DNA from: a virus
Lineage: Duplodnaviria > Heunggongvirae > Uroviricota > Caudoviricetes
Strand: one strand, 5' to 3'
IMG/VR virus record: IMGVR_UViG_2563366998_000011
Coordinates: 1 to 53,254 of that record
Length of the DNA stretch: 53,254 bases
The notes under the pieces were generated by a model, which was given only the letters and a program-made list of their open reading frames with translations, did no database searches and was not told where the DNA came from. A program made the position numbers and the translations under genes. Positions within the stretch are counted from its first letter, which is position 1; every line of letters begins with the position of its first letter. Positions 4,000 to 51,180 of this stretch are shown here, in pieces.

Positions 4000-5118
4000 T
4001 TACAAAATGGAATATTCAGGGTAATAAACAAAGCGCCCAATTTCCCCATGATCCGGGCTGTAAATAATCACCGCTGCCAGACGCCGCGACCGCCAGCCGC
4101 CATTAGTTGAATATGCGTCTTTGCCAGCTAATGTGCCGTGGTGCTCAACTATTCCAAGTGATGTTTCAACAACTGATTGATGGTGCAGATGTCCAGTGTG
4201 AGCGTAAACAGCCACAGACCTTCCGAAATCCTCCCGCCAGTCAGCTACGCAAGCAGACAATAAATTTTCCGGCTTTTTGATAGTGTGCCCGTGGTGGTAA
4301 GCAAGGAATGTTTTGCCATACTGTGTGTGGTGGACAATGGCAGGTGACACGTCAACAGTCACGCGCGGCTCATCTTCGTAAAAAGCCGCAAGCGCAGCAC
4401 GTAGCCAGATCATACCTGATTGGTCGTGATTACCGGATAATACCTGGATCTCGACATCCTTATGATTTAGTAACATCTTCCCGACCGCACGCCGGACCGA
4501 CCGGATCGCCACATAAACCAGTTTTGCGTAGCGTGAATCACAATCTAAAACGTGATTACTTGATGGCGTCACTGGTAACAGGCCGTCAGTGTGAAGCACA
4601 TCACCGCCGAGAAGTAAAACAGCTTTTTCAGACATCGGAGCAGCGCCAACAGCGTAGTCAAAGAAGTCATTCAACACGCGCTCAGCGATCCCAGTATCGT
4701 AGCTCTCACCGCATTCAGCTTTATGAGCAAGCGCCCCGATATGCAGATCAAACACCGGATAAAGTGCCAGGCTTTTTTGAAAATCAATTTCAGGCACTGG
4801 CACAGCCTCCGCGCGTGGTATTTCATCAGTGAAAGCGTCGCGGGCCGCTTCCATTAGCTGTTCCATTTCTTCGCGGTCACGGGCTGTTTTAATCCAGCGC
4901 ATGATAACATTGCCGTTCTTATCGACTAGCAACGACTCGCCATTGACGCCAAAACCAGGAGCGCGGCGTGTTGATAATAAACCACGTTTCGCCAGTTTTG
5001 CGCCCAGGCGCTCGACATTGCGTTTTGACATGCCATATTTTTCAGCAATCTGCTTGTACGTTAAACCGTTGTTATATTCAGCGATCAATTGCTCATCGCT
5101 GATTTTTCTTTGCGACAT
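4000..5118 (-). CDS. HTH-domain protein with metallophosphoesterase motifs (possibly replication-associated)
   Basis: 372 aa; N-terminal HTH (LTYKQIAEKYGMSKRNVERL); motifs DLHIG, GGDVLHTDG, SGNHDQ resembling SbcD/Mre11-type metallophosphoesterases; lies between replisome organizer and helicase. Confidence 0.6.
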   Translation of the reverse strand: MSQRKISDEQLIAEYNNGLTYKQIAEKYGMSKRNVERLGAKLAKRGLLSTRRAPGFGVNGESLLVDKNGNVIMRWIKTARDREEMEQLMEAARDAFTDEIPRAEAVPVPEIDFQKSLALYPVFDLHIGALAHKAECGESYDTGIAERVLNDFFDYAVGAAPMSEKAVLLLGGDVLHTDGLLPVTPSSNHVLDCDSRYAKLVYVAIRSVRRAVGKMLLNHKDVEIQVLSGNHDQSGMIWLRAALAAFYEDEPRVTVDVSPAIVHHTQYGKTFLAYHHGHTIKKPENLLSACVADWREDFGRSVAVYAHTGHLHHQSVVETSLGIVEHHGTLAGKDAYSTNGGWRSRRLAAVIIYSPDHGEIGRFVYYPEYSIL

Positions 5119-5152
5119 AATGTTAATTCCTCAGGTTTACATTTTGTATACA

Positions 5153-6208
5153 TCAGGATATAGCACAACGAAAAAACTTGCACCCCAAATAATCCTCAAT
5201 GCGTTTTTGTCTTATCGCATCGCTTTTTGCTTGCCGTTTGTGATGTGATTCATCAATTTCTACAGCAATATTATTCACAAGATCGTAGCCATCAATAAAA
5301 TACTTGTTGCCAGCAACATTAACAGGATATTGCCTTATTAATTTAACTCCTTTTAGTTTTTCGTACATAGTTAATCCAGCATGTTCATAACGCTTCCTAA
5401 TCATATTTTTACAATTATAACTCATTTCTGATAATTTCTCGTCACATTCCCTTTTTATTTCCTCAATTACATTCTTGTCGCTTTTTAATTCAATAAAGTT
5501 TTCTATGTCGTTATAATTACCGCATTCAAAATTATTACTAAGACCTTTATTTTGACCCCATGTATGATACTTTTCCGCTATCTTATCGCTAATATATCTT
5601 TCATATCCATAATTTGTTTTAACTGTAAAATATTCAATATTTAAATCAATGGTAAACTCATCATTATTAAGATGTTCATTTAAAAACGTATCTGGATCTG
5701 CAATATCGCTTGAATGAAACAACCTTACCCATAGTTTTTCTATTGATACTCCGCGAGTAACGAACAACCATTTTTTATACTTTTCAGCATCTTCCTTTGA
5801 CACATACACAGAGCATCGCCCGGGAGTATCACTAGTTTCAACATAGTTGTTACACCATAAAACATAATTATAAGCATAAGGACTATCTTTTCTGGTATTA
5901 TTTGAATATTTATTAAACACATCTTGTAAATCAACTAATCCACAAGATTCAATAACTGGCTTAACCCAATTTTCATTATATTCATAATGTCTATATTTAC
6001 CAGGTGTAACGAATCTAATAAACGTTATAGGTGTGATATACACATCATCACCATCAATAATAAAATCCTTGTATTCCTCAAATCCGTAAAGATCAGAGTA
6101 TTTAACAAATGATTTAAGCCTATCGATTTCAAGTTCAGAAACAAGATTATTAACAGATAGTAATTGCGTGTCCTTACAATTTAGTTTCACATGATAAGTG
6201 GCAATCAT
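5153..6208 (-). CDS. AT-rich moron protein with C-terminal restriction-endonuclease-like (DUF559/Vsr-like) domain
   Basis: ORF 5153..6289; likely start MIATYHV at 6208 with AAGAGG RBS; visibly AT-rich versus flanks; C-terminus YFIDGYDLVNNIAVEIDESHHK...DAIRQKRIEDYLGCKFFR fits the DUF559 endonuclease pattern. Confidence 0.55.
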   Translation of the reverse strand: MIATYHVKLNCKDTQLLSVNNLVSELEIDRLKSFVKYSDLYGFEEYKDFIIDGDDVYITPITFIRFVTPGKYRHYEYNENWVKPVIESCGLVDLQDVFNKYSNNTRKDSPYAYNYVLWCNNYVETSDTPGRCSVYVSKEDAEKYKKWLFVTRGVSIEKLWVRLFHSSDIADPDTFLNEHLNNDEFTIDLNIEYFTVKTNYGYERYISDKIAEKYHTWGQNKGLSNNFECGNYNDIENFIELKSDKNVIEEIKRECDEKLSEMSYNCKNMIRKRYEHAGLTMYEKLKGVKLIRQYPVNVAGNKYFIDGYDLVNNIAVEIDESHHKRQAKSDAIRQKRIEDYLGCKFFRCAIS

Positions 6209-6361
6209 ATGTACCTCTTTTCTTAATTTTATATATAACGCCTCAGACGTGCTACAACGCAAAAATCCCACCGCGTAACCCGTTTGCACAGGTTGCAGTG
6301 TCTTATTGCGTCAGAGGCGCTCTCAGGTGGCTAATTTTTGATTTACAGGCTGGTATGAAGG

Positions 6362-6463
6362 TTATGGATTGATAAGAAGGAACAAACCGCCGAACAAAGC
6401 GACGTTAACAGCGATTGCAGCAGCGATGGCAAAGGCCAGGGCGAAAACGTGTTTACCGTCCAT
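6362..6463 (-). CDS. Small hydrophobic membrane peptide (33 aa)
   Basis: MDGKHVFALAFAIAAAIAVNVALFGGLFLLINP; GAGAGGA RBS 7 nt upstream; below track cutoff. Confidence 0.35.
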   Translation of the reverse strand: MDGKHVFALAFAIAAAIAVNVALFGGLFLLINP

Positions 6464-6596
6464 TTTAAAATCCTCTCTAAAACGCTCTATAACGAGCTAA
6501 ATAGCTAAAGATATGCAATCGTAGCACCATGCGTGTTTTAGCTCGCTGGTGAGGTTGTTTTGTGGGTAATTTTGGATTTTTGCGAATCGTGGTTGG

Positions 6597-7649
6597 TCAA
6601 AGAGCGCCTGCGCGTGTGTCGCGTAGCGTTTTTGGTTTAAGCAGGAAATCAAGTGTCGCTGTGAAGCCATTGCCGAAGTAAAAATCTGAAGCCGTGTTTT
6701 TGAATGTTTCGAAGTAGGCGACAAAGCCGTTAATGCTTTTGTCTTTCAGGTAGTCAGTGAACGCATAGATCTTGCGTTCAAGATCCCGATCCAGTTCGAC
6801 AGGTGGTAACAGGCCGTCAAACGTGCTGTTAAATGCTTCCACCACGTCGGCAGCGTTTGCAGTGGCTGACAGTTTGCGCCATTGTTCAGCATCAGTCAGA
6901 TACCCATCAAATTTAGTTACCCGGCAAATATTGATAGGCTTAGGTGTTCCACCACGGCTACGCCATTGCGTTAAAGCCCACTCAATCACTAATGTGATCT
7001 CATCCTCCGTATACGCTTTACGTGTTTTTGTTTCTGTCAGTAGTTCGATGAATGGCTTCGCATCACGACATTTGCATCCTGCCTTGTCGTTGTAGAAGGC
7101 CAGGCAACGCAACGCCGCTTCGTTTACGCCATCATGATTGACCATTTTTTGTTCATTTTCGACAATACACGAAGTGTATATATCTTTTTCTCTTTCTTCT
7201 TCTACTTCTAATTCTAATTCATGACCCTTTCCTGACCCGGTCATGACCCTATCATGACCTTTTTGTGTTGGATTGATTAACTTTTCTAATTTTAATTGCT
7301 CCTTAGCTGTGTTTATGGCGGCCCTGTACGCGCTTTTAGAAGTCATTGATTGGTCAAGCCTTTTCAATAACTTTAAACAAGTTATGTGGCCTTGAGAACA
7401 TTCAAACAAACCAATTTCGATGAAGTATTTCATCATTTCTTCTATACGTTTTTCAGTCGATCCGACGTTTCGCGCAATGATTCTCGCGTCATGTCGTAGG
7501 TCAAAAGTCAGATTGTGCTGATCTACGTCATAAGTTATTAGTTCGAGGCAATACCAATAAAGCCCGTACCCTTCCAGGCCATAATCTAACAAAACGTTTT
7601 GAAGTTTTTCATCGCGGTTCGCATCGCTGTCATGCTTAAACCACTTCAT
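6597..7649 (-). CDS. Phage replication initiation / replisome organizer protein (DUF4373-like N-terminus)
   Basis: 350 aa; N-terminus MKWFKHDSDANRDEKL...YGLEGYGLYWYCLELI matches the Lin1244/DUF4373 pattern of phage replisome organizers. Confidence 0.65.
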   Translation of the reverse strand: MKWFKHDSDANRDEKLQNVLLDYGLEGYGLYWYCLELITYDVDQHNLTFDLRHDARIIARNVGSTEKRIEEMMKYFIEIGLFECSQGHITCLKLLKRLDQSMTSKSAYRAAINTAKEQLKLEKLINPTQKGHDRVMTGSGKGHELELEVEEEREKDIYTSCIVENEQKMVNHDGVNEAALRCLAFYNDKAGCKCRDAKPFIELLTETKTRKAYTEDEITLVIEWALTQWRSRGGTPKPINICRVTKFDGYLTDAEQWRKLSATANAADVVEAFNSTFDGLLPPVELDRDLERKIYAFTDYLKDKSINGFVAYFETFKNTASDFYFGNGFTATLDFLLKPKTLRDTRAGAL

Positions 7650-7652
7650 AGA

Positions 7653-7910
7653 TCATCCCTCCGGCAACATCACTACATAGACATCACTGAATGCATCAAG
7701 ACGACAAACAAATCCTTTATCCATTAACGCGGCGAAGGCATCATGTACCGTATGAACAGGAAGTTCACACATTGCGGCTACTTCTTTGCGTGATGCATCA
7801 TGTACCCGTCCTTTGTTATCTGCCTTTTCAGCCAGAGCCATTAAGACAAGTTTTTGAATCGGGCTATTAAGTTTTACGTTCCATGCTTTACTAATCATGT
7901 TTATACTCAT
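7653..7910 (-). CDS. HTH DNA-binding protein at the Cro position
   Basis: ORF 7653..7988; best start MSINMISK at 7910 with AGGAGAAAA RBS; KLVLMALAEKADNKG resembles HTH_36 winged helix; first gene divergent from the repressor. Confidence 0.5.
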   Translation of the reverse strand: MSINMISKAWNVKLNSPIQKLVLMALAEKADNKGRVHDASRKEVAAMCELPVHTVHDAFAALMDKGFVCRLDAFSDVYVVMLPEG

Positions 7911-8180
7911 CGCATTTTCTCCTATGGTTAGAGTGAACGCGCGGGCGGGCATCCCATTAGCATTAGATAGCAGTGACTGACCGCTCAACAGATCCCGCCG
8001 TTGCGTGATATTTGTTTTTCGCTTCGCAGCGACACCGGATTTTTAAAGAGCATAAGGTAAGTGCCTTTTTGTGCCTTCCGTTATCTTTTTCCTTGCGTCT
8101 TTGCAAGTATGGCCTTACCTTGTCTGCAAGTTTACAAAATGGAATTTTAAGATCAAGGCTTAAAATACACGTTTTGTGAC

Positions 8181-8216
8181 TTGCATCAAACTTTTTGAGG
8201 TTATAGGGTAGCGACA
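8181..8216 (+). promoter_or_regulatory. Candidate pRM-like promoter giving a leaderless cI mRNA
   Basis: TTGCAT (8181-8186), 17-bp spacer, TAGGGT (8204-8209); predicted start coincides with the cI ATG at 8216; no SD upstream. Confidence 0.35.
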
Positions 8217-8863
8217 TGAAAACAAAATGGTATGACTTAGCAAAGCAGCTCATGCGGGCGCAGGGCATGAGCCAGGATTCGCTCGCGGATCGTATGGGGA
8301 TAACTAAAGGCGGCCTGTCACACTGGCTGAACGGTCGCCGAGAGCCAAATCTTGAAGATATTGCGCGGATTATGCGCGAGCTTGGTCGTCGGCAGTTTAC
8401 TGTTACACATGATGGCATGGTCATTGATGATTCTGTTTCTAATACACTTCAGGCCGTGCCGCCGCGTGATTTAGGTAGTTACCCGGTTATTGACTGGAAG
8501 GACACAGTAAACAATATGGATGACGCAAGGCGTTCAGCATTACGACACGTTACGACTAGCGTTATTTGTTCAGATGACAGTTACTGGCTGGTTGCCAAAG
8601 GTGAATCAATGAACGCGCCGCAGGGGTTGAGCATCCCGGCGGGGACGATGATACTTGTGGACCCGCACGCGCCAGCTATTGACGGCAAACTGGTTATAGC
8701 CCAGCTTGAGGAAGGGCAGATACCGACGTTTAAACAGTTGATTATTGATGGAGGTCAAAGGCTTTTACGTTCGCTCAATCCGCTGTATCCGCCAATCCCT
8801 ATGAATCCAGAATCAAAAATTATAGGCGTGGTGGTTGATGCGAAGATCGTAAACCTGCCATAA
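8216..8863 (+). CDS. cI: CI-like repressor (HTH-XRE plus S24 LexA-like peptidase domain)
   Basis: 215 aa; N-terminal HTH (MSQDSLADRMGITKGGLSHWLNGRREP); C-terminal S24 domain with GESM serine and downstream lysine (TFKQL); divergent from the Cro-position gene. Confidence 0.85.
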   Translation: MKTKWYDLAKQLMRAQGMSQDSLADRMGITKGGLSHWLNGRREPNLEDIARIMRELGRRQFTVTHDGMVIDDSVSNTLQAVPPRDLGSYPVIDWKDTVNNMDDARRSALRHVTTSVICSDDSYWLVAKGESMNAPQGLSIPAGTMILVDPHAPAIDGKLVIAQLEEGQIPTFKQLIIDGGQRLLRSLNPLYPPIPMNPESKIIGVVVDAKIVNLP

Positions 8864-8867
8864 ACAT

Positions 8868-8893
8868 TAGCCGCCGAATGGCGGCTTTTCTTT
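8868..8893 (+). terminator. Intrinsic terminator downstream of cI
   Basis: hairpin GCCGCC-GAAT-GGCGGC followed by TTTTCTTT. Confidence 0.6.
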
Positions 8894-8987
8894 GCCTGGG
8901 AAACACCAAAACGTAAACAGAAAACGTTATTTATTATTTAAATATCAATGGCATATAAAATATTTTAAAAAAGTATACAAAATGGAT

Positions 8988-9016
8988 TGACTCGATGTTT
9001 TACGGGGCGTATATTG
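8988..9016 (+). promoter_or_regulatory. Candidate pL-like sigma70 promoter
   Basis: TTGACT, 17-bp spacer, TATATT; immediately preceded by the dispersed TACAAAATGGA motif (8976-8986). Confidence 0.4.
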
Positions 9017-9269: not shown

Positions 9270-9307
9270 CGCTCATTAACAATCTGGTCAGCCGCTGGAA
9301 GTGCGGC
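9270..9307 (+). promoter_or_regulatory. nutL-like site (boxA-like CGCTCATTA plus boxB-like hairpin)
   Basis: CGCTCATTA at 9270-9278 resembles boxA CGCTCTTA; hairpin GCCGC-UGGAAGU-GCGGC at 9291-9307; about 60 bp upstream of the N-like gene. Confidence 0.4.
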
Positions 9308-9363: not shown

Positions 9364-9654
9364 ATGAGCGTTACAATTATATATGGTAAATGTGATAGCA
9401 AAATGAATGCCAGGGAACGCAGAAGGATAAAAAGAGAAAACGAAAGAAAATCATCACCTGCAATCAATAAAACAGACAATGTGGATAAAGCTATTCGATT
9501 TGCAAACGAGGAAAGATGCAAACCAAATAGCATTAAAGAACGTCGCAAAGGATCAGTAAAATGGTATACGGAAAATGAAAGCGGCAGCTACTACCACGCA
9601 ACGCAACCACGCCATTTAGGGGAAAAACCCCTGGATAAAGTCCGCTACCATTAA
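9364..9654 (+). CDS. N: N-like transcription antiterminator (P22 gene 24 type)
   Basis: 96 aa; N-terminus MSVTIIYGK...NARERRRIKRENERK parallels the P22 N start and arginine-rich motif as recalled; first gene after cI. Confidence 0.7.
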   Translation: MSVTIIYGKCDSKMNARERRRIKRENERKSSPAINKTDNVDKAIRFANEERCKPNSIKERRKGSVKWYTENESGSYYHATQPRHLGEKPLDKVRYH

Positions 9655-9800
9655 TACAAAATGTAAACATCCGGAGATGACATTATGGTTATTCAGGCGC
9701 TTCAATTCAAACTGGCAGTAGCGGAAATGCTTCACGATGCCGAAATGTGGAGCGCCGCGAATAAAGCCTTATACATAGTGTTAACAGCACGGGAGATTAA

Positions 9801-10445
9801 ATGGTGAAAACAGAGTTACATAAAAAGCTATGGACGATTCAGCAAACGCTGAACGCGCCGAAAAATCAGCGTAATAATTTTGGTGGATATAATTACAGGT
9901 CGGCGGAGGATATTTTAGAGGCGGTTAAACCACTGCTTCAAAATATCACGCTGACTGTTAGTGATGAAATTGTCCTGATCGGCAATCGCTATTATGTGAA
10001 AGCAACGGCGACGCTAAGCGACGGTGAAGACGTAATAGCGGTAACTGCTTATGCCAGGGAGGAAGAAAACAAGAAGGGTATGGACGCCAGCCAGCTAACA
10101 GGAGCAACATCAAGTTACGCGCGTAAATATGCTTTGAACGGTTTATTCTGTATAGATGATGCTCGCGATCCTGATACTGATGCTTACGCGAAGCAGACAG
10201 GCCAGCAGCCGCGACAACAGAAAAACCCACCAAAACAACAACCGCAGCAGAAGAAAGCGCCGCCAAATCCTGATGAAGTATTAGCACGTTTCTGTGATGC
10301 AGCAGCGAAAGCGCAGGACGCTAACAAGCTGCGTGAAATATTTGGCAAATGCTGGAAATTACTACCGGAAGGATCGGAACATCGAATCAAGGCAAAAGAT
10401 GTTTATGACATCCGGGTCGCAGAGCTTAACGGGGAGATGGGTTAA
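9801..10445 (+). CDS. erf: ERF-family single-strand annealing protein
   Basis: 214 aa; NAPKNQ..FGGYNYRS.EDILE.VKPLL ... IGNRYYVKATATL.DGE ... GATSSYARKYALNGLF.IDD pattern consistent with P22 Erf-like proteins as recalled. Confidence 0.7.
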   Translation: MVKTELHKKLWTIQQTLNAPKNQRNNFGGYNYRSAEDILEAVKPLLQNITLTVSDEIVLIGNRYYVKATATLSDGEDVIAVTAYAREEENKKGMDASQLTGATSSYARKYALNGLFCIDDARDPDTDAYAKQTGQQPRQQKNPPKQQPQQKKAPPNPDEVLARFCDAAAKAQDANKLREIFGKCWKLLPEGSEHRIKAKDVYDIRVAELNGEMG

Positions 10446-13046: not shown

Positions 13047-13145
13047 CCGAGTAATTCCGATCACATAAATATACATTTTGTATTGTGATTGTATATCCGT
13101 TTTGTAAGCCGAAATCAAAAGGTTTACGGTGCGGAGGAAGCAAAA

Positions 13146-14336: not shown

Positions 14337-14876
14337 ATGAAAAATGATTACGGCGGCAGTCATACGCCGAAAGAAATAAAAGACCTATGGCAGACGCCGA
14401 AACCTGTTTTTAGAGGAATGGATCGGGAATTCGAATTCGTCGCGGACGTGGCGGCAAACAAGGCAAATGCATTAGTTCCGCGATATATAACCGAAGAAAT
14501 GAACACGCTTAATTACCCGTGGGGAGCGGTGGCGATGCCTGGTGAATATGTCTGGATGAATCCACCATATTCTAATCCGGGACCATTCGTTGATAAGGCG
14601 GCGTTTGAACACCACCGAAATCATATTGGCTGTGTAATGTTATTGCCAGCCGACACTTCTGTTAGTTGGTTTATGAACGGCGTGGAGACGGCAAATGAAT
14701 GCCGATTAATCACGCGCGGGCGGCTGGCGTTTATTAATGCCGCGACGGGTAAACCAGCAAGCGGAAACAATAAGGGGAGCTTGTTCTTGATCTGGCATCC
14801 ACGGTGCAGACATGAATGTATTTTCACGCAGATAACACGTAAAGAGCTATATGCAAGAGGTGCAGATAATGACTAA
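14337..14876 (+). CDS. dam: Phage-type DNA N6-adenine methyltransferase (Dam family)
   Basis: 179 aa; catalytic NPPY motif (WMNPPYSNPGPF); size and layout typical of small orphan phage Dam. Confidence 0.8.
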   Translation: MKNDYGGSHTPKEIKDLWQTPKPVFRGMDREFEFVADVAANKANALVPRYITEEMNTLNYPWGAVAMPGEYVWMNPPYSNPGPFVDKAAFEHHRNHIGCVMLLPADTSVSWFMNGVETANECRLITRGRLAFINAATGKPASGNNKGSLFLIWHPRCRHECIFTQITRKELYARGADND

Positions 14877-16604: not shown

Positions 16605-16764
16605 TGTTTACAAAATGGCGTCATTGTGTGATGCGGATCACATAATGGCGCTTTATTGTTTGTTCGCATGTATCCGTTTTGTATACTTCAAACAAACAAA
16701 ATGCTCTTTAAAAATCCGGTAACGCTGAAATGCGTAAAAATCACCTGAAAAAGGAGAGAGCATT

Positions 16765-21883: not shown

Positions 21884-21997
21884 GGCGTTGGACAACCATA
21901 AATGTGATCTGTATCACAATGTATACGAAATGGCATTGTTTCGACAGTGCCATTTTGTTATATATAAGCCACGGAAAGACGGAGGGGAGGCAAGAAG

Positions 21998-36475: not shown

Positions 36476-37183
36476 GTGAATACTATGATCCATGTTCGTA
36501 CAGGACAATTTGCTGCCGTGGTGAACGGTAAGCGCTATGAGTTTAATCCTTGCTTTGCTGCGATGGCTAAAATCGGCAACGATAGTGAGCTTGTCGAATA
36601 TTTCGCACTTATCCACGGCGGCAAATATCCATCACGATTGCCAGCAGATCCAGACCTACGCAATCGCATTCTGGCGCGGTGTTATGGTGAAATAGTTCAG
36701 ACATCAATGCACATCCTGAAATGTTGCTCAGACGACGAAATAGGCCCGTTATTGGGCGAATGCTGGTTTACTCCTTCGGGTAAGTTAAAGTTAAAGCCCG
36801 GATTAATGCCGATCGAGGATATCATCACGCTTGCGCAGCACTGCATGTACCACGGTCTTATTGGTGATGGCCCGGAAGAAGAGTCCGGGGAAATTCCGGA
36901 AGGGGAATATAAGCCGACTTTTAACGTCCTTGAATTCGTCTATTCTGCCGTTGCTCACCTGGGCTTGTCAGAATCGGAAGCATGGAATATGACAATGACC
37001 GGATATAGGGCCGCTGTACGCGCTAAAACGCCGCCAGACGAAAGAAACGAGAAAAGCAAGCCAAACATTCACATAAATAAACGTGCTTATGACGAGCAAA
37101 TGGAGGCCGCTAAAAAGGCACTAGAAAGAATGAAAAATCGTGAGCAAGAAAAGCCCGGTAGATCCGGGCGTTTTGCTAATTGA
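36476..37183 (+). CDS. Tail assembly chaperone (putative)
   Basis: 235 aa; position upstream of tape measure. Confidence 0.45.
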   Translation: MNTMIHVRTGQFAAVVNGKRYEFNPCFAAMAKIGNDSELVEYFALIHGGKYPSRLPADPDLRNRILARCYGEIVQTSMHILKCCSDDEIGPLLGECWFTPSGKLKLKPGLMPIEDIITLAQHCMYHGLIGDGPEEESGEIPEGEYKPTFNVLEFVYSAVAHLGLSESEAWNMTMTGYRAAVRAKTPPDERNEKSKPNIHINKRAYDEQMEAAKKALERMKNREQEKPGRSGRFAN

Positions 37184-37550
37184 AATCTTTAATTGCTGTA
37201 CCTGGTGAACTGTGTGTGATTGTATTGTATACAGACTTTGCCTTACTGCGATCTTTCCATTCTTTTAGGATGCAGTTATCAAACTTTGCGATAACCCTTG
37301 AAGGGGATAATTCTTCAACATCCATGTAAGTAAATCCTATCGTGCTGGTTACTGAATACCATACGTGATAACTATAATTACCGTCATGCTCGATTCTTTG
37401 TGGTTCCCCCATTATTTTATTCACTTGCTCACAAGTCATTCCAACTTGCAAATTTTTATCAGCTAACTTAACGAAATCAGTTGATCTTGCGCACCCTGTA
37501 AGAGCTAAAGCCATAACACCAATGAGAACCGCTTTGATTATTTTTTTCAT
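37176..37550 (-). CDS. Lipoprotein (antisense moron in tail cluster)
   Basis: 124 aa; signal peptide and lipobox LTGC; opposite strand to tail genes. Confidence 0.7.
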   Translation of the reverse strand: MKKIIKAVLIGVMALALTGCARSTDFVKLADKNLQVGMTCEQVNKIMGEPQRIEHDGNYSYHVWYSVTSTIGFTYMDVEELSPSRVIAKFDNCILKEWKDRSKAKSVYNTITHSSPGTAIKDFN

Positions 37551-37560
37551 GATTTACCCC

Positions 37561-38220
37561 TTAATTCCAGTTGCAAGCGTTTTTCACTTTGTCGATGTGG
37601 TTATAAAGACCATCAATGTTAAACACTGCTTTCTCAATGTCGCCAGCTTCCGGCACTACTTCAATGATGAATTGTTTTTCGTTAACCAGTTTTTTAATCA
37701 TTGGGATGGCTTTTTTGCCGTCCCATAATCCAAGAGCTTTATAATTAGTTGACCGCCACCACTCAGTAGCTACAGCTTTGTGAACGCCGATCCGGTAGTT
37801 AATATAAGTAGTGTCCCCGGCGTCAGTTACATGGTGTGACCATGCTACGAACATTTTTGTTTTATTACCCTGGCAAGCGATTGTTAATACCGGTTTATTC
37901 TTATCCTGTGCCTTCAGTGTCGGGAAAGCATCAAGACTTCCGCTGAATTGTTCTGCTTTCACAAAAAGGAATACGTTTTTTGCGTCCTGCATATCATCTT
38001 TTCTTTCAACTACAAGCCACTGTTTACCAGCATTTTCTTTTTCTAACTGTGCATCGTATGCGGCTTGTTTTGCTTGTTGTTCTGCAAGCCATTTAGCATT
38101 TTTCTCTGCTAATGCTTGTTGCTCTTGATTGGTCACTATAGGCGCTTTTTCATTATCCTCATTGCAACCAACCAGACCCAATACCGCCGCAATCATTGCC
38201 ACTTTTGCTAACCGTTTCAT
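37561..38220 (-). CDS. Lipoprotein (antisense moron in tail cluster)
   Basis: 219 aa; signal peptide and lipobox LVGC. Confidence 0.7.
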   Translation of the reverse strand: MKRLAKVAMIAAVLGLVGCNEDNEKAPIVTNQEQQALAEKNAKWLAEQQAKQAAYDAQLEKENAGKQWLVVERKDDMQDAKNVFLFVKAEQFSGSLDAFPTLKAQDKNKPVLTIACQGNKTKMFVAWSHHVTDAGDTTYINYRIGVHKAVATEWWRSTNYKALGLWDGKKAIPMIKKLVNEKQFIIEVVPEAGDIEKAVFNIDGLYNHIDKVKNACNWN

Positions 38221-38347
38221 AACCCACCACGCTAACTTGATTTACTGACCATTCCCTTTAGCTTCCTTATACAAAATGGAGTCGTTGAAGTAAAGCCATT
38301 TTGTATAAAATAGATACACAGATCACATTTTTGCATGAGGTTAAATC

Positions 38348-40690: not shown

Positions 40691-41400
40691 ACTAAACCCC
40701 GGTGCAATGCCGGGGTTATTTTTGTGCACAGAAAACCCCCAGCTAGGCTGGGGGTTCCGGAAAGCTTTCAGCTTTAAGCCAGTTATTAAAACCCCTTTTG
40801 ATTTGTTAAAACACCTTGCGGTCTGGCAACTGCAAGTGTCAAACAAGAAATCAAAAGGGGGTCCCAATGGGGAACGAAAAGAGCTTAGCGCACACCCGAT
40901 GGAACTGTAAATATCACATAGTTTTTGCGCCAAAATACCGAAGACAGGTGTTCTACAGAGAGAAGCGTAGAGCAATAGGCAGTATTTTGAGAAAGCTGTG
41001 TGAGTGGAAAAGTGTACGGATTCTGGAAGCTGAATGCTGTGCAGATCATATCCATATGCTTGTGGAGATCCCGCCCAAAATGAGCGTATCCGGGTTTATG
41101 GGATATCTGAAAGGGAAAAGCAGTCTGATGCTTTACGAGCAGTTTGGTGATTTGAAATTCAAATACAGGAACAGGGAGTTCTGGTGCAGAGGGTACTACG
41201 TCGATACAGTGGGTAAGAACACGGCGAAGATACAGGATTACATAAAGCACCAGCTTGAAGAGGATAAAATGGGAGAGCAGTTATCGATTCCCTATCCGGG
41301 CAGCCCGTTTACGGGCCGTAAGTAACGAAGTTGGATGCAAATGTCAGATCGTGTGCGCCTGTTAGGGCGCGGCTGGTAAGAGAGCCTTATAGGCGCATTT
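40691..41400 (+). mobile_element. IS200 insertion sequence (boundaries approximate)
   Basis: contains IS200-type tnpA; left-end hairpins at 40697-40715 and 40733-40756; about 0.7 kb; inserted between tape measure and gene M. Confidence 0.65.
40867..41325 (+). CDS. tnpA: IS200/IS605-family transposase TnpA
   Basis: ORF 40816..41325, likely start MGNEKSLAHTRWNCKYHIVF; HxH motif (HIHMLVEIPP) and catalytic Tyr region (GYYVDTVG); matches Salmonella IS200 TnpA as recalled. Confidence 0.9.
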   Translation: MGNEKSLAHTRWNCKYHIVFAPKYRRQVFYREKRRAIGSILRKLCEWKSVRILEAECCADHIHMLVEIPPKMSVSGFMGYLKGKSSLMLYEQFGDLKFKYRNREFWCRGYYVDTVGKNTAKIQDYIKHQLEEDKMGEQLSIPYPGSPFTGRK

Positions 41401-41425
41401 GAAAAACCTCCGGCTATGCCGGAGG
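41399..41425 (-). terminator. Minus-strand intrinsic terminator
   Basis: hairpin CCTCCGGCATAGCCGGAGG followed by TTTTTC on minus strand. Confidence 0.5.
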
Positions 41426-41488
41426 ATATTTATTTCGTATTTATAAACGACCATTCCGCGCGATATATCCCCTTTCGAATATCTCGAC

Positions 41489-41743
41489 TCACTTATGAGT
41501 GCCTTTCACGCCACATAACTTGTTATAGGCATGGTGCTCAACAATTAACCAAACCTTCAAATCTTCGCTAAACAGCCTCCAATCAAGATTGATATCCATT
41601 TTGTATCCGTAACCGTCGCGTAACTTTTTGGGGTAAACTTCTTTTCTCAGAAAGGCTTTAAGTAATTCCTTACCTTTCTTGATGATCCGGTCCTGTGCGT
41701 TTTTCTGTGCTTTCAGATTTCTGTCAATCGCTACCAGTTTCAT
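41489..41743 (-). CDS. Hypothetical protein, possible RelE/YafQ-like toxin
   Basis: 84 aa; basic; C-terminal ...VKGTHK loosely resembles the YafQ/RelE C-terminus; second gene of a two-gene antisense operon. Confidence 0.3.
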   Translation of the reverse strand: MKLVAIDRNLKAQKNAQDRIIKKGKELLKAFLRKEVYPKKLRDGYGYKMDINLDWRLFSEDLKVWLIVEHHAYNKLCGVKGTHK

Positions 41744-41760
41744 AACTCACCCCATCATCC

Positions 41761-41916
41761 TTAGTTAAGTGCCTTCAGGAAGAAGTCCCGGTATTCATCT
41801 TCTTTCGCATTCATCATGAATTGACCGTATTTGAATGCGTCGTCGAAACCCTTAACGATTGCTATTTCCACTTGTTCGAATGCGTTATTTAGCATTACTA
41901 CTACATAGCGTTTCAT
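41761..41916 (-). CDS. Small hypothetical protein (51 aa), possible antitoxin partner
   Basis: MKRYVVVMLNNAFEQ...; strong GAAGGAGG RBS; 18 nt upstream of the 84-aa gene. Confidence 0.35.
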   Translation of the reverse strand: MKRYVVVMLNNAFEQVEIAIVKGFDDAFKYGQFMMNAKEDEYRDFFLKALN

Positions 41917-42083
41917 TTTGGGCCTCCTTCGTTGGTACTACTTTCTTCTTGCTTTCTATATACATCTTGTTGCGTGCTATGTGAAGCCATTTTGTAAACT
42001 AGCTATAATCATTGTGACAATGATCTTATTTTTCGCGTAGAAGCGCGTAAAGATATATACAAAATGTAACTTGTGGGGGGTTT

Positions 42084-42437
42084 ATGCCGGAAGTGTTCAG
42101 ATGGACGCCGCAAAGAAGCTACAGCGTGACCAGGAAGCCAGACGTATCTGTTGTTAAGCTGGGCGATGGTTATGAGCAAAGACAGGTAAAAGGTATCAAT
42201 CCATTGCTTGATAGCTACACCCTGGTGTTTAAAGGCAGTAGCGCCGGATGTGGTGATGGTGGAAACGTAGCAATCCAGGCGGAAGCATTCTTGAGGGCGC
42301 GCGGCGCGGTCGAGGCTTTTTACTGGTCGCCGTCAATGGATAACGTGCAAAGGCTTTTTGTCTGTCGGCAATGGAGCATGACTAAAGACGGGCCTTTGTA
42401 CACGCTAAACGCAACGTTTGAGCAAGTTGTTGGCTAA
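42084..42437 (+). CDS. M: Minor tail protein M
   Basis: 117 aa; FRW...KLGDGYEQR...EAFL...WSP...FEQVVG matches lambda gpM. Confidence 0.85.
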   Translation: MPEVFRWTPQRSYSVTRKPDVSVVKLGDGYEQRQVKGINPLLDSYTLVFKGSSAGCGDGGNVAIQAEAFLRARGAVEAFYWSPSMDNVQRLFVCRQWSMTKDGPLYTLNATFEQVVG

Positions 42438-42790: not shown

Positions 42791-43039
42791 CTATAAGTTA
42801 TCACGCAGATAATTAACGCCCTTATCAGTGACGAATGAATGGTTAACCTGGTTTTCATCCGTCATGATGATGAATAACTTTTCATGTAGGTATTTCGCTT
42901 TCGGGTACAGCGTTAAACAGACCTGGTACAGTATCCCGCGCTCAATCAGCAAATCAATAAATTCGTGTTCATGATAACCGATGAGGCGGGCGGCCTGTTT
43001 CAACGTGTACACATAATCACCGTGATTGCGCCGCCCCAT
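42791..43039 (-). CDS. Hypothetical protein (possible HTH), antisense moron
   Basis: 82 aa ORF on opposite strand between M and L. Confidence 0.4.
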   Translation of the reverse strand: MGRRNHGDYVYTLKQAARLIGYHEHEFIDLLIERGILYQVCLTLYPKAKYLHEKLFIIMTDENQVNHSFVTDKGVNYLRDNL

Positions 43040-43048
43040 GTTGCCGCC

Positions 43049-43396
43049 TTATTTATCGAATGCTGAAAGGTTATCGATACAGAAATCTTTCGCCGCTTTT
43101 TCGTATTCGCGTTTTGCTTCTGGATCGTCAGCCGGGAAACCTTTTGCGTGTATTTCACCAGGGCAAGACTGGTCCATAGAATCTGCATAATAAGCAGTGA
43201 AGCTACCATTAATATCTTTCGGGTTCATATCTTCCACCTCATCAACTATATGTACCGGATTAGCAGCATATTTCACTGGATGGCCTAAACTACATTCAAG
43301 AATCCTGCCTTCTTCCAGGGCTACTTCTTCGCTATCAAATAATCCGAAACACTCCTTGCTACCACTTAACCACACATCAAGACTGTATTTTTTCAT
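43049..43396 (-). CDS. Hypothetical protein, antisense moron
   Basis: ORF 43049..43498; likely start MKKYSLDV at 43396 with GAGG RBS. Confidence 0.4.
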   Translation of the reverse strand: MKKYSLDVWLSGSKECFGLFDSEEVALEEGRILECSLGHPVKYAANPVHIVDEVEDMNPKDINGSFTAYYADSMDQSCPGEIHAKGFPADDPEAKREYEKAAKDFCIDNLSAFDK

Positions 43397-43565
43397 TTTT
43401 GTTAGCCTCATATTTGACAGGTTCGATCTGGTATCCCAAAAGGCGGTCATCCTCAGCAAGTAAAAGCGCGTCAACCAATGCTTCACCCTCGTCGTCATAC
43501 AGGGCGATAACCTTTTCCCTACCGTCTGTCATGAATACCGTCAACTTCCATAGCTTTTCAGTCAT
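43377..43565 (-). CDS. Hypothetical protein (62 aa), antisense moron
   Basis: ORF 43377..43685; likely start MTEKLWK at 43565 with GGAGGTG RBS. Confidence 0.4.
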   Translation of the reverse strand: MTEKLWKLTVFMTDGREKVIALYDDEGEALVDALLLAEDDRLLGYQIEPVKYEANKNEKIQS

Positions 43566-43694
43566 AACGCACCTCCGCGCCATTTTGTTAACTATGCTTC
43601 CGTTTGAGTAAAATATACATATTGTAAAAACCGCGATCAATCCATTTTGGTATGATTTAGCGTGACGCAGATCACAGAATGACAAGGTGAGAAA

Positions 43695-50698: not shown

Positions 50699-50727
50699 AA
50701 AAACGGGGCATAAGCCCCGTTTTTTTA
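50697..50727. terminator. Bidirectional intrinsic terminator after J
   Basis: AAAAAAACGGGGC-ATAA-GCCCCGTTTTTTT. Confidence 0.75.
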
Positions 50728-50737
50728 TGCATTGTTT

Positions 50738-50983
50738 TTATTTTTTACACCCATCATTTACACCAGAAAAATGGATAGGTAAATTACATTCACTGTCAAT
50801 AATTTTACCTTGTAGTTGTTTTTCTTTCCATGAGTCAGTATTGAAATAACTCGAACGTTGGTTATCAAGGCCAGTATCACCATATTGAGCAGTGCCAGCA
50901 TCACTCTTATCTGTCGAATTTACAGAAGCAAAAGCACCAAAAGACAGAGCTGATAAGATGCAAGCAACAATTAGTTTTTTCAT
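50738..50983 (-). CDS. Small secreted protein (lom-position antisense moron)
   Basis: ORF 50738..51040; likely start MKKLIVACILSALSFGAFA at 50983 with AAGGTGA RBS; signal peptide; between J and side tail fiber. Confidence 0.5.
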   Translation of the reverse strand: MKKLIVACILSALSFGAFASVNSTDKSDAGTAQYGDTGLDNQRSSYFNTDSWKEKQLQGKIIDSECNLPIHFSGVNDGCKK

Positions 50984-51180
50984 TGTATTCACCTTACTGT
51001 TTGTTTTACTGTCATTTGTTGTTCGTGATGATCCACCCATCCGATGAGCAAATCACCGCAGAAGCTATCATTTCGTATGTTGATATAGATCAAAAAATAC
51101 ATTATGTATAAGCCCAAAGTGTAACACAGATTACAAAATGGTAGAATTGTTTAGTTAATTAACAAAACGGAGTTATTGCG

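What the first reader, a model, noticed from the sequence alone, without database searches (positions are those of the whole stretch)
4001..51141. Dispersed 10-bp motif TACAAAATGG (core of T(T/A)TACAAAATGGA) at eight exact intergenic sites, stoperator-like
Exact TACAAAATGG occurs at 4001-4010, 8133-8142, 8976-8985, 16609-16618, 38270-38279 and 51132-51141 on the plus strand, and as its reverse complement at 38296-38305 and 41987-41996. About 0.1 occurrence is expected by chance in 53 kb on both strands. One-mismatch variants lie at 1045-1054, 5136-5149, 9655-9668, 13072-13082, 13098-13107, 16675-16684, 42058-42070, 43580-43589 and 43642-43650. Sites sit in the cro/cI divergent region, immediately upstream of the -35 of the candidate pL, and at the boundaries of every antisense moron cassette in the tail cluster (a 45-bp palindromic pair at 38266-38310; 41987; 43580; 51132). 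This is reminiscent of the dispersed asymmetric stoperator sites of mycobacteriophage L5, or of a shared promoter or recombination-boundary element.
Basis: seen in the sequence. Interest (0 to 1): 0.7.

Follow-up and report, generated by a model that had tools for sequence, protein, structure and literature searches.

The report
Dispersed operators of a lambda-like repressor
The repeated TACAAAATGG is the core of a 17-base binding site for this prophage's lambda-like CI repressor, and unlike in lambda the site is scattered over about twenty places in the genome, putting accessory-gene cassettes and even tail genes under predicted repressor control.

Summary
The window is a relative of the mEp021/mEpimmI coliphages, whose operators have not been described in the papers I could search. 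The 10-mer is the conserved core of a 17-bp pseudo-palindrome, GTWTACA-AAA-TGKAWWY (fully symmetric form GTATACAAAATGTATAC). It sits in fixed register with sigma-70 promoters: centred near -42, overlapping the TTG of the -35, and/or near -16, supplying the -10. Pairs lie 24-25 bp apart. The decisive evidence is comparative. A sister lineage (CI 55% identical, DNA about 67%) keeps the motif at syntenic sites, and its CI N-terminal arm and recognition helix are 100% identical. In four unrelated prophage backbones with CI relatives of the same helix type, 10 of 12 strong hits flank cI (p=3e-14). A P22-C2-type control has none. The motif is therefore very probably the CI operator. The unusual feature is dispersal: 23 of 25 strong sites lie away from cI, at predicted promoters of an antirepressor cassette, a ParE-like toxin cassette, a lipoprotein cassette and tail genes, and in intra-operon gaps. 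It works like the dispersed-operator systems of P1, phiC31 and L5, but it is not an L5-type stoperator.

The parts
8216..8863 (+). cI repressor gene (215 aa, HTH_3 + Peptidase_S24), the proposed binder of the motif
   Evidence: Pfam. Full-length homologue of lambda CI 3BDN, E=1.4e-20. N-terminal arm MKTKW and MGITKGGLSHWLNGRREPN are 100% conserved in the 55%-identical sister CI.
8130..8146 (+). Operator OL1, GTTTACAAAATGGAATT (23.0 bits). Overlaps the spacer and -10 of the predicted leftward early promoter (TTGATC 8157->8152, 16 nt, TAAACT 8134->8129), upstream of nutL boxA (8051->8035).
   Evidence: The -35 (TTGAYC) and -10 (TAAACT) are conserved in 24 distinct relatives while the spacer varies. 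Motif position 5 varies (A/G/T).
8165..8181 (-). Operator OL2, AGTCACAAAACGTGTAT (weak here at 8.1 bits; AGTCACAAAATGTATTT in relatives). Abuts the candidate cI promoter -35, TTGCAT 8181-8186.
   Evidence: Inverted repeat I1.
8973..8989 (+). Operator OR, GTATACAAAATGGATTG (22.1 bits), centred near -41/-42 of the strong rightward early promoter (TTGACT 8987-8992, 17 nt, TATATT 9010-9015). Followed by nutR1 boxA (~9058) and the N-like gene (9364-9654).
   Evidence: 10/12 promoter; invariant in 33 distinct relatives while the promoter spacer varies; no second site in the promoter core.
3998..4014 (+). Intra-operon site GTTTACAAAATGGAATA, just upstream of the RBS of the DnaB-type helicase gene (2560-3981, -), antisense to the operon
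   Evidence: (17-mer 0.975 vs flanks 0.935 identity). A syntenic site is present in the sister group (L166 6706-6722).
5135..5151 (-). Palindromic intra-operon site GTATACAAAATGTAAAC, upstream of gene 4000-5118 (-)
   Evidence: 21.3 bits; 10.2 bits on the other strand.
9652..9668 (+). Palindromic intra-operon site TAATACAAAATGTAAAC, between the N-like gene and a small, weakly Kil-like ORF (9685-9807)
   Evidence: Syntenic palindromic site in the sister group (L166 11279-11295, GTATACAAAACGTATAA).
13069..13109 (-). Direct pair of operators (13093-13109 and 13069-13085, 24 bp apart) on a predicted leftward promoter (TATACA 13095->13090, 16 nt, TATATT 13073->13068), antisense to the early right operon
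   Evidence: (9/12).
16606..16686 (.). Cluster of three sites (16606-16622 +, 16636-16652 + weak, 16670-16686 -) with a perfect CRP-like palindrome (16627-16642). The last site supplies the -10 TATACT (16682-16687) of a predicted promoter just upstream of nutR2 boxA (~16703-16719).
   Evidence: The nutR2 position agrees with PMC11893012.
21903..21964 (+). Composite element: CRP-like palindrome (21903-21918), operator 21921-21937, -35 TTGTTT 21936-21941, inverted operator 21946-21962, -10 TATATA 21959-21964. Also a 21-bp hairpin.
   Evidence: Found in few relatives.
38266..38335 (-). Composite leftward promoter for the VasI-like/BamE-like lipoprotein cassette (38220->37176): CRP-like half-site, operator 38292-38308 (about -42), -35 TTTACT 38294->38289, inverted operator 38267-38283 (about -17), -10 TATAAG 38271->38266
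   Evidence: operators, -35 and -10 conserved across about 25 distinct relatives while flanks vary; 9/12.
41983..41999 (-). Shared operator GTTTACAAAATGGCTTC between back-to-back promoters. P41987- (TTCACA 41985->41980, 17 nt, TATATA 41962->41957; operator near -41) drives a small ORF plus the ParE-like toxin. P42004+ (GTGAAG 41981-41986, 17 nt, TATAAT 42004-42009; operator over the -35 and spacer) lies upstream of tail gene 42084-42437.
   Evidence: (both hexamer pairs invariant, spacers variable).
42055..42071 (+). Site ATATACAAAATGTAACT, immediately upstream of the RBS of minor tail gene 42084-42437
   Evidence: 19.2 bits.
43576..43676 (-). Control region of the KilAC-antirepressor cassette (43565->42791): CRP-like site 43661-43676, operators 43638-43654 (about -42), 43613-43629 (about -16) and 43576-43592 (about +20), promoter TTGATC 43640->43635, 17 nt, TATATT 43617->43612. 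Divergent extended -10 promoter TGGTATGAT (43648-43656) lies toward tail gene L (43695).
   Evidence: (KilAC/ANT domain).
51095..51174 (.). Three sites (51095-51111 -, 51129-51145 +, 51158-51174 +) between a leftward 100-aa gene and the tail-fibre gene (51181-52977). The middle site overlaps the extended -10 promoter TGGTAGAAT (51139-51147).
41592..41608 (-). Exact copy inside the ParE-like toxin gene. Probably coincidental (codons Tyr-Lys-Met-Asp).

Best explanation
TACAAAATGG is the conserved core of the 17-bp, partly dyad-symmetric operator (GTWTACA-AAA-TGKAWWY; symmetric form GTATACAAAATGTATAC) of the prophage's lambda-type CI repressor (HTH + S24 domain, gene 8216-8863). Shown by sequence and comparison: the motif's length, symmetry and enrichment; its fixed register with sigma-70-type promoter hexamers; its conservation; and its strict association with this CI family in unrelated phages. 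Inferred: CI dimers bind these sites. Where a site overlaps the spacer and -10 (centre about -16 to -25), CI blocks RNA polymerase. This applies to the leftward early promoter, the promoter before nutR2/Q, the antirepressor cassette, the lipoprotein cassette, and internal promoters before tail genes. Paired sites 24-25 bp apart are probably bound cooperatively through the lambda-like C-terminal domain. Sites centred near -42 overlap the TTG of the -35. They could repress (which is required at the early rightward promoter) or, as lambda CI does at PRM, activate (possible at the ParE-like toxin cassette). Symmetric sites in short intra-operon gaps could act as roadblocks or looping anchors. Relatives of this CI in other phages have operators only beside cI. 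In this phage lineage the operator has spread to about 20-25 sites, so one repressor would silence many separate transcription units.
For: Enrichment. Motif shape: 14-nt information content; 25 site families giving the dyad T4-A14, C6-G12, A7-T11 and many fully palindromic members. Location: the longest sequence shared by the two control regions flanking cI is AAGTWTACAAAATGGA. Promoter register: 4 of 18 sites scored >=9/12 for motif-gap-(-35)-16/17-(-10), binomial p=2e-6; a fifth (43642-) fits when read by hand at the corrected coordinate. Reverse-complement copies supply TAWACT -10 hexamers. Footprinting: the OR site is invariant in 33 distinct relatives while the promoter spacer varies; most sites are better conserved than their flanks. 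CI is a full-length lambda CI homologue. Sister lineage L166-L169: same gene order, about 67% DNA identity, CI 55% identical, but arm MKTKW and MGITKGGLSHWLNGRREPN 100% identical, and the motif is retained at syntenic sites, with two copies before an inserted ANT antirepressor gene. Independent test on loci not used to build the matrix: in Citrobacter, Enterobacter, Serratia and Tatumella prophages with CI relatives of the same helix type, 10 of 12 hits >=14 bits lie within 250 bp of cI (p=3e-14), and the other two precede the N gene. Their early promoters show the same -35/-10 overlap geometry, with sites 25 bp apart. The P22-C2-type control has 0 hits in 20.6 kb. The window has no homologue of the Cro-like HTH_3 genes of those phages, so CI is the only shared regulator. 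Background is 0.06 hits per 10 kb in 841 kb of other phages and 0 in 50 kb of host DNA, against 4.4 per 10 kb in the window away from cI.
Against: No binding data exist and no promoter here has been mapped; all -35/-10 assignments are predictions. The main early rightward promoter has a single site at about -42 and none in its core. That is lambda's activating geometry, so how CI would shut this promoter off is unexplained. Most dispersed copies have G rather than the symmetric T at position 13, and the central AAA is conserved in one orientation relative to that G. This is not what a simple symmetric dimer predicts. The site upstream of cI is less conserved than its flanks (0.866 vs 0.914). 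Cro-like proteins in the other phages would be expected to share the operators, so those phages alone cannot separate CI from Cro. The argument rests on the window lacking a Cro homologue.
Confidence: 0.8

Rival explanations
1. The motif is bound by a different regulator: another phage protein (for example the MarR-like protein at 1923-2516, the HTH_23 protein at 1-231, or the winged-helix protein at 7653-7988) or a host transcription factor. CI would then recognise something else.
For: There are no binding data. The asymmetric TGG and the oriented central AAA look like a single 10-bp recognition unit. CRP-like sites accompany several copies, so host factors do act at these promoters.
Against: The motif follows the CI family into four unrelated backbones that lack the mEp genes, and there it sits only beside cI. 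It is absent from the P22-C2-type control, from 841 kb of other enterobacterial phages and from 50 kb of host DNA, which argues against a general host factor. CI's recognition helix is frozen together with the motif. I recalled no E. coli factor with this consensus (from memory, not tested).
Confidence: 0.08
2. It is an L5-type stoperator system: an asymmetric site bound by a monomeric repressor that stops elongating RNA polymerase in an orientation-dependent way.
For: There are many sites across the genome, several in short intergenic gaps inside operons (3998, 5135, 9652, 42055, 43576), and these positions are conserved in the sister group.
Against: The repressor is a lambda-type HTH+S24 protein, not the two-domain monomer (criteria from PMC9283540). 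The site is dyad-symmetric. Orientation relative to transcription is mixed: 3998+ is antisense, 5135- and 9652+ are sense, and promoter sites occur in both senses. Most sites overlap promoters.
Confidence: 0.04
3. The repeats are primarily recombination or mobility elements: shared boundary sequences or mobile promoter cassettes (like the PeSL elements of T4-type phages, recalled from memory) that mediate exchange of accessory cassettes.
For: Homology breakpoints are enriched 2.6-fold within 100 bp of sites (15.5% of breakpoints in 5.9% of the DNA). Different cassette genes follow the same conserved promoter/operator module in different relatives. P38296- and P41987- share TACAAAATGGCTTCAC.
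Against: Each cassette has the motif at only one end, and the other boundary is a terminator without the motif. The same motif is present at the core immunity promoters and, in unrelated phages, only beside cI. Breakpoints fall in intergenic DNA in any case. Any recombination role is at most secondary.
Confidence: 0.05
4. The motif acts at the RNA level (hairpins, terminators, translational operators) or is merely an A/T-rich UP-element-like promoter component.
For: Inverted pairs fold well (z = -4.2 to -7.7). The 21918-21966 pair is a 21-bp hairpin followed by a U-rich run. At -47 to -38 the motif resembles what I recall of the proximal UP subsite consensus.
Against: Single copies do not fold (9645-9695, z = -0.45). 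Copies occur in both orientations relative to transcription and both upstream and downstream of start points. The conserved C6, G12 and G13 are not explained by A/T richness. The clustering beside cI in unrelated phages is not explained at all.
Confidence: 0.03

Closest known systems
Lambda CI operators OR1-3 / OL1-3
   Same: The repressor is a full-length lambda CI homologue (HTH + S24). The sites are 17-bp with a strong and a weaker half, overlap the -35/-10 of early promoters on either side of cI, and form pairs 24-25 bp apart, close to what I recall for lambda (about 24 bp). A site centred near -42 is the geometry by which lambda CI activates PRM. In the alignment the residues at lambda positions E34 and D38 are D and D; that these positions form lambda's positive-control patch is from my own knowledge.
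   Different: Different sequence. Only one or two sites per early promoter rather than triplets. Above all, 23 of 25 strong sites lie outside the immunity region, including in the late/tail region. No Cro homologue is present.
Mycobacteriophage L5 / cluster A operators and stoperators (PMC9283540)
   Same: More than 20 repressor sites are spread through the genome, at promoters and in short intergenic gaps within operons. One repressor would silence many units.
   Different: L5 sites are asymmetric 13-mers bound by a monomer with two DNA-binding domains, and work only in one orientation relative to transcription. Here the site is a 17-bp dyad for a lambda-type CI and its orientation is mixed.
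Phage P1 C1-controlled operators (from memory)
   Same: An E. coli temperate phage with roughly 17 or more dispersed 17-bp operators controlling separate lytic operons, including an antirepressor-type gene (coi). Some operators are paired.
   Different: As I recall, P1 C1 is an unrelated monomeric repressor and its operators are asymmetric. P1 is a plasmid prophage with auxiliary immunity loci.
Streptomyces phage phiC31 conserved inverted repeats (CIRs) and SPbeta MrpR repeated elements (from memory)
   Same: A 17-bp inverted repeat present at about 18 intergenic loci and bound by the phage repressor (phiC31). A master repressor with repeated sites across the prophage (SPbeta).
   Different: Unrelated repressor families and hosts.
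Operators of the same CI family in Citrobacter, Enterobacter, Serratia and Tatumella prophages
   Same: The same 17-bp consensus (for example CAATACAAAATGTATAC) and the same overlap geometry with -35 and -10, with sites 25 bp apart.
   Different: There the operators are confined to the two control regions flanking cI (or before N) and are mostly fully palindromic. Here they are dispersed, and most copies carry TGG instead of TGT in the right half.

Membership tests
Lambda-type CI operator | The phage encodes a CI repressor with an N-terminal HTH and a C-terminal S24 (LexA-like) domain | tested here: met
   Pfam HTH_3 + Peptidase_S24; phmmer to lambda CI 3BDN, E=1.4e-20 over residues 15-208.
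Lambda-type CI operator | A site of about 17 bp with (partial) dyad symmetry | tested here: met
   In 25 site families T4/A14, C6/G12 and A7/T11 pair. Palindromic members include GTATACAAAATGGATAC and TTATACATAATGTATAC. Caveat: G is preferred at position 13 and the central AAA is conserved.
Lambda-type CI operator | Sites overlap the early promoters on both sides of cI | tested here: met
   OR abuts and overlaps the -35 of the 10/12 promoter at 8987-9015. OL1 overlaps the -10 of the conserved leftward TTGAYC-16-TAAACT. The promoters are predicted, not mapped.
Lambda-type CI operator | The site sequence travels with the repressor's recognition helix, independently of the rest of the genome | tested here: met
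   Sister lineage: helix 100% identical and motif retained. Four unrelated backbones: 10 of 12 hits beside cI, p=3e-14. Different-helix control: 0 hits.
Lambda-type CI operator | Tandem operators spaced for cooperative binding (about 24 bp in lambda, from memory) | tested here: inconclusive
   Pairs at 24-25 bp occur at 13069/13093, 21921/21946, 38267/38292 and 43613/43638, and in the heterologous phages. But OR is single and OL1/OL2 are 35 bp apart.
Lambda-type CI operator | Operators confined to the immunity region | tested here: not met
   23 of 25 hits >=14 bits lie more than 250 bp from cI, 4.4 per 10 kb against a background of 0.06.
Lambda-type CI operator | Physical binding by CI, and repression | not testable with these tools
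   Needs EMSA, footprinting, ChIP or reporter assays.
L5-type stoperator (PMC9283540) | A monomeric repressor with two DNA-binding domains | tested here: not met
   The repressor is lambda-CI-like, with an S24 dimerisation/cleavage domain.
L5-type stoperator (PMC9283540) | An asymmetric 13-mer site | tested here: not met
   The site is a 17-bp pseudo-palindrome.
L5-type stoperator (PMC9283540) | More than 20 sites, in promoters and in short intergenic spaces across the genome | tested here: met
   25 hits >=14 bits. There are promoter sites plus intra-operon gap sites at 3998, 5135, 9652, 42055 and 43576.
L5-type stoperator (PMC9283540) | Site orientation correlates with the direction of transcription | tested here: not met
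   3998+ is antisense to its operon, and 5135-, 9652+ and 42055+ are sense. Promoter sites occur in both senses.
L5-type stoperator (PMC9283540) | Blocks transcription elongation | not testable with these tools
   Would need in vivo read-through reporters with and without CI.
Recombination-boundary / mobile promoter cassette | The repeat is present at both ends of exchanged modules, and breakpoints fall inside it | tested here: not met
   The motif is only at the promoter end of each cassette; the distal boundaries (about 37150, 41450, 42750) have none. Overall breakpoint enrichment is 2.6-fold.
Host repetitive element | Common in host chromosomal DNA | tested here: not met
   0 exact copies and 1 one-mismatch copy in 50 kb of E. 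coli M15 chromosome; 0 matrix hits >=14 bits. Only 50 kb was sampled.

The most novel reading that the evidence does not exclude
Spreading the operator over about 20 loci has turned a lambda-type immunity switch into a genome-wide network, with two consequences. (1) Immunity specificity is frozen, because changing it would require changing about 20 sites at once. This would explain why CI's DNA-reading residues are 100% identical across lineages whose CI is otherwise 55% identical, and why all 48 known mEpimmI phages form a single immunity group, unlike the lambdoid phages. (2) CI works in both directions. It represses promoters with a site at -16 (antirepressor, tail-gene and early promoters), while from -42-only sites it activates lysogen-specific cassettes such as the ParE-like toxin module, switching back-to-back promoter pairs (41987-/42004+) as lambda does at PR/PRM.
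Probability: 0.3. Interest if true: 0.65.

Novelty: new member of a known kind. Interest (0 to 1): 0.5.

Why it matters
It gives the first concrete, testable operator sequence and promoter/operator map for the mEp021/mEpimmI coliphages. These are a prevalent gut phage group whose repressor (Rep021) has been shown to confer immunity, but whose operators are not described in the papers I could search (PMC11893012). It predicts that a lambda-type CI controls about ten separate transcription units. These include an antirepressor cassette, a toxin cassette, a lipoprotein cassette and promoters inside the tail-gene cluster, which changes how the 'morons' of these prophages should be read. Comparing phages where the same CI family has confined operators with this lineage, where they are dispersed, offers a natural system for studying how repressor regulons expand. 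It may also show whether such expansion constrains the evolution of new immunities.

Tried and rejected
(1) Loci L048-L050 (CI 38% identical) were meant as a covariation test, but tblastn showed they are unrelated phages. (2) The single genome-contig scan, made with the Lin1244 replication protein, returned only remote homologues in unrelated bacteria. (3) A search for mosaic E. coli prophages with this late region but another immunity region, or the reverse, found none. Both regions occur in the same 35 of 5,426 genomes. (5) Literature searches for the 10-mer and for the palindromic 13-mers found nothing relevant. (6) I considered TGCAAGT (three copies upstream of cI) as the true operator. 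It is not enriched in the window (9 vs 8.97 expected) and PR has no exact copy. (7) I considered the TTGACTCG/CGAGTCAA inverted repeat around PR. It is not conserved in relatives. (8) I considered the motif as a -10 or -35 element in its own right. It fits only as an overlap with operators. (9) From memory I compared it with the 434 operator (ACAA-N6-TTGT), the LexA box, IHF, OmpR, TyrR, CpxR and GAD-box consensus sequences. None fits, and these comparisons were not tested with tools. (10) My greedy ORF caller wrongly marked 8133 and 8976 as coding. PGAP annotation of a close relative shows both are intergenic. (11) In one search I entered the coordinate of the 43642- site 3 bp off, so that run scored 4 rather than 5 promoters at >=9/12. 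The hand reading gives TTGATC-17-TATATT.

Full report
OBSERVATION. Exact TACAAAATGG occurs nine times in the 53,254-bp window, against 0.29 expected from dinucleotide shuffles. Copies with at most one mismatch number 24 against 5.98 expected. The ninth copy (41596-41605, minus strand) was missed. It lies inside a ParE-like toxin gene, encodes Tyr-Lys-Met-Asp, and has synonymous changes around it in relatives, so it is probably coincidental. The listed one-mismatch variants are right to within a base, and 43642-43651 has two mismatches. The motif is not a host repeat. There are no exact copies in 50 kb of E. coli chromosome or in 841 kb of other enterobacterial phage DNA. The exact inverted pair TACAAAATGG-N14-18-CCATTTTGTA is found in only 17 of 2.9 million IMG/VR contigs, all of this phage group.

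WHAT THE WINDOW IS. It is 85-93% identical to the mEp021/mEpimmI coliphages and to prophages in 35 of 5,426 complete E. coli genomes. The layout is as follows. A leftward early operon starts near 8100: nutL, a winged-helix protein resembling the N-terminal domain of replication initiators, a Lin1244 replication protein, DnaB and NinB. cI lies at 8216-8863 and is followed by a terminator. A strong rightward promoter, TTGACT-17-TATATT, lies at 8987-9015, followed by nutR1, the N-like gene, Erf, SSB, Dam, nutR2, NinG, RusA, Q, and the lysis, head and tail genes. Leftward accessory cassettes are inserted in the tail cluster. The paper describing the group shows that the repressor Rep021 confers immunity against all members, and it places the three nut sites where I find them. 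It defines no operators and does not mention this motif.

ANATOMY OF THE MOTIF. Aligning the copies shows information over about 14 nt, GT(T/A)TACAAAATGG(A/C). All TACAAAATGT variants continue with A. Two of them, GTATACAAAATGTAAAC at 5135-5151 and TAATACAAAATGTAAAC at 9652-9668, are 17-bp palindromes. Compiling every copy in 75 related sequences gave about 25 conserved site families. Many are plainly symmetric, for example GTATACAAAATGGATAC, TTATACATAATGTATAC and GTTAACAAAATGTATAC. The count matrix shows the dyad T4/A14, C6/G12, A7/T11 around a conserved AAA, with G or T at position 13.

REGISTER WITH PROMOTERS. The copies sit in two fixed positions relative to sigma-70-type hexamers. In the first, the motif is followed after one base by a -35 hexamer, so the 17-mer is centred near -42 and overlaps the TTG of the -35. 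Examples are 8987+ (TTGACT/17/TATATT), 13097- (TATACA/16/TATATT), 38296- (TTTACT/17/TATAAG), 41987- (TTCACA/17/TATATA) and 43641- (TTGATC/17/TATATT), with 21924+ fitting at a gap of two bases. Four of 18 sites scored at least 9/12 in this geometry, against a background rate of 0.5% (binomial p=2e-6). A fifth was mis-entered by 3 bp in that run but fits when read by hand. In the second position the reverse complement runs into the -10, so the strong half TGTAWAC supplies TAWAC(T). Examples are the conserved leftward early promoter TTGAYC/16/TAAACT (8157->8129), the promoter TATACT (16682-16687) just upstream of nutR2, and the second copies at 13069, 21946, 38267 and 43613, which lie 24-25 bp centre to centre from their partners. 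One operator (41983-41999) serves two back-to-back promoters. It lies at -41 of P41987-, which drives a small ORF and the ParE-like toxin. It also covers the -35 and spacer of P42004+ (GTGAAG/17/TATAAT), which precedes a tail gene. In relatives both hexamer pairs are invariant while the spacers vary. Two extended -10 promoters use the motif's TGG: TGGTATGAT at 43648 before tail gene L, and TGGTAGAAT at 51139 before the tail-fibre gene. Phylogenetic footprinting supports function. AAAAAAGTATACAAAATGG plus TTGACT is invariant in 33 distinct relatives while the promoter spacer varies. Most 17-mers are better conserved than their flanks. The site upstream of cI is the exception: its fifth core base varies.

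WHO BINDS IT. All 48 known group members share one repressor, and cI and the late region are perfectly linked in E. coli genomes. A covariation test therefore needed more distant relatives. A search with CI found them.

First, P0008 (55% identical) belongs to a sister lineage with the same gene order (integrase, NinB, DnaB, cI, N-like, Kil-like, Erf, SSB, Dam, NinG, RusA) but only about 67% DNA identity in shared genes, and with a Cro-like HTH_3 gene opposite cI. This lineage keeps the motif at the syntenic places: the cro-cI gap, abutting the -35 of the promoter downstream of cI, the gap between the N-like and Kil-like genes, upstream of DnaB, and the cluster before NinG. It also has two copies in front of an inserted pRha/ANT antirepressor gene. 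In its CI the N-terminal arm MKTKW and the stretch MGITKGGLSHWLNGRREPN are 100% identical, although the protein overall is 55% identical. That stretch aligns with the turn, recognition helix and following loop of lambda CI.

Second, CI relatives with the same type of helix (ITKG[GA][LV]SHWLN[GA]) occur in unrelated prophage backbones of Citrobacter, Enterobacter, Serratia and Tatumella. I scanned those loci with a 17-bp matrix built only from the window's group. Ten of the twelve hits of at least 14 bits lie within 250 bp of cI (p=3e-14), and the other two form a pair in front of the N gene. The sites are mostly full palindromes, many of them 25 bp apart, one overlapping the TTG of a -35 and the next overlapping the -10. 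This is the same geometry as in the window. A Salmonella prophage with a P22-C2-type recognition helix has no hit in 20.6 kb.

Third, the window has no homologue of the Cro-like genes of those phages; only CI's own HTH matches. CI is thus the only regulator common to all motif-bearing phages. I conclude, with about 0.8 confidence, that the motif is the operator of this CI family.

WHAT IS UNUSUAL. In the other phages the operators are confined to the immunity region, as in lambda. In the window, 23 of 25 hits of at least 14 bits lie more than 250 bp from cI (4.4 per 10 kb). In the sister lineage the figure is 10 of 13 (5.1 per 10 kb). Background is 0.06 per 10 kb. The dispersed sites mark the following:
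- an antisense promoter at 13097-;
- the promoter before nutR2 and Q;
- a composite element at 21903-21964;
- the promoters of three leftward cassettes in the tail cluster, carrying a VasI-like protein plus a BamE-like lipoprotein, a small ORF plus a ParE-like toxin, and a KilAC antirepressor domain protein;
- predicted promoters before tail genes at 42084, 43695 and 51181;
- short gaps inside the early operons (3998, 5135, 9652).

MECHANISM (inferred). CI dimers occupy the 17-mers. Occupancy at -16 to -25 blocks RNA polymerase. Paired sites 24-25 bp apart would be bound cooperatively through the lambda-like C-terminal domain. The antirepressor cassette, which must be silent in a lysogen, has the most sites (-42, -16 and +20). 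The symmetric gap sites could be roadblocks or looping anchors. The sign of regulation at promoters with only a -42 site is open. The early promoter at 8987 must be shut off in a lysogen, yet this is the geometry of activation by lambda CI at PRM. In the alignment the residues at lambda positions E34 and D38 are D and D; that these form lambda's positive-control patch is from my own knowledge. Repression there may need occlusion of the -35 or UP-element region, or looping to the operators 840 bp away. At the ParE-like toxin cassette, activation in lysogens is conceivable.

COMPARISON WITH KNOWN SYSTEMS. The element works like the dispersed operator networks of mycobacteriophage L5 (operators and stoperators), and, from memory, P1 (C1 operators, including control of the antirepressor-like coi) and phiC31 (17-bp conserved inverted repeats). 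It is not an L5-type stoperator. The repressor is not a two-domain monomer, the site is not an asymmetric 13-mer, and orientation is not tied to transcription (criteria from PMC9283540). As a lambda-type CI operator it meets every sequence-level criterion except confinement to the immunity region. The recombination-boundary idea fails because each cassette has the motif at its promoter end only. RNA-level explanations fail because single copies do not fold and orientation is mixed.

NOVELTY AND INTEREST. The operator of this phage group is not described in the papers I could search. The finding is a new member of a known kind: repressor operators, here dispersed. It is solidly supported by comparison and directly testable with existing reagents (pRep021). 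The more novel reading is that dispersal freezes immunity specificity and that CI both represses and activates. It is compatible with the frozen recognition helix and the single immunity group, but it is unproven.

LIMITS. There are no binding or transcript data. All promoters are predictions. Only about 20 kb of the sister lineage was available. The host-DNA control was 50 kb. Statements about P1, phiC31, SPbeta and lambda's positive-control residues rest on my own knowledge.

Noticed in passing
16627-16642, 21903-21918, 43661-43676, 38320-38335: CRP-like palindromes TGTGA-N6-TCACA (two perfect, one with one mismatch, one half-site), each containing a GATC, lie about 60 bp upstream of the predicted start of operator-bearing promoters. 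Four of the five hits in the window adjoin operators. The phage encodes its own Dam methylase (14337-14876). This suggests cAMP-CRP and possibly methylation input into these promoters once they are derepressed.
   Followed up: partly
40719-41435: An IS element is inserted after the tape-measure gene. It is 99.4% identical to a 'mobile element protein' region of phage Lambda_ev058, and its end matches more than 2,000 E. coli records.
   Followed up: no
8216-8234: The first codons of cI (ATGAAAACAAAATGG, encoding the arm MKTKW) themselves score 13.9 bits as an operator. The same holds in the sister lineage. This may be a coding coincidence or an autoregulatory site.
   Followed up: no
7653-7988: The gene in the 'Cro position', divergent from cI, matches the N-terminal DNA-binding domain of replication initiators (phrog_4617, E=9.5e-20), not a Cro. 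The window has no Cro-like HTH_3 gene, whereas the sister lineage has one.
   Followed up: partly
9685-9807: A 40-aa ORF directly after the palindromic operator 9652-9668 has a weak lambda Kil-like Pfam hit (E=2e-4, below the curated cut-off).
   Followed up: no
21918-21966: The operator pair here is part of a perfect 21-bp hairpin (-23.5 kcal/mol, z=-7.7) followed by a U-rich run on both strands, so it looks like a bidirectional terminator. The element is present in few relatives.
   Followed up: partly
8902-8956: Upstream of the rightward early promoter there is a conserved CCAAAACGTAAAC (a half-operator-like sequence) and an IHF-like TATCAA-N4-WTA whose four central bases vary among relatives.
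   Followed up: no
37176-38220, 41489-41916, 42791-43565: The leftward cassettes in the tail cluster encode a VasI-like (T6SS-associated family) protein plus a BamE-like lipoprotein, a small ORF plus a ParE-like toxin, and a short KilAC antirepressor-domain protein. Cassette content differs between relatives downstream of a conserved promoter/operator module.
   Followed up: partly
L166-L169 (Logan contigs such as SRR23253299_32704, ~52-54 kb): A sister lineage of the mEpimmI-type phages: same gene order, about 67% DNA identity, CI 55% identical, and a Cro-like gene present. It does not appear to be among the described group members. L166 carries an extra pRha/ANT antirepressor gene in the left operon, preceded by two operators.
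   Followed up: partly
1042-1058: TTATACAAAATGCCTGT (14.5 bits) lies within or next to the small ORF 909-1085 (-) near NinB. The sequence is identical in the 14 relatives that carry it, and its function is unknown.
   Followed up: no
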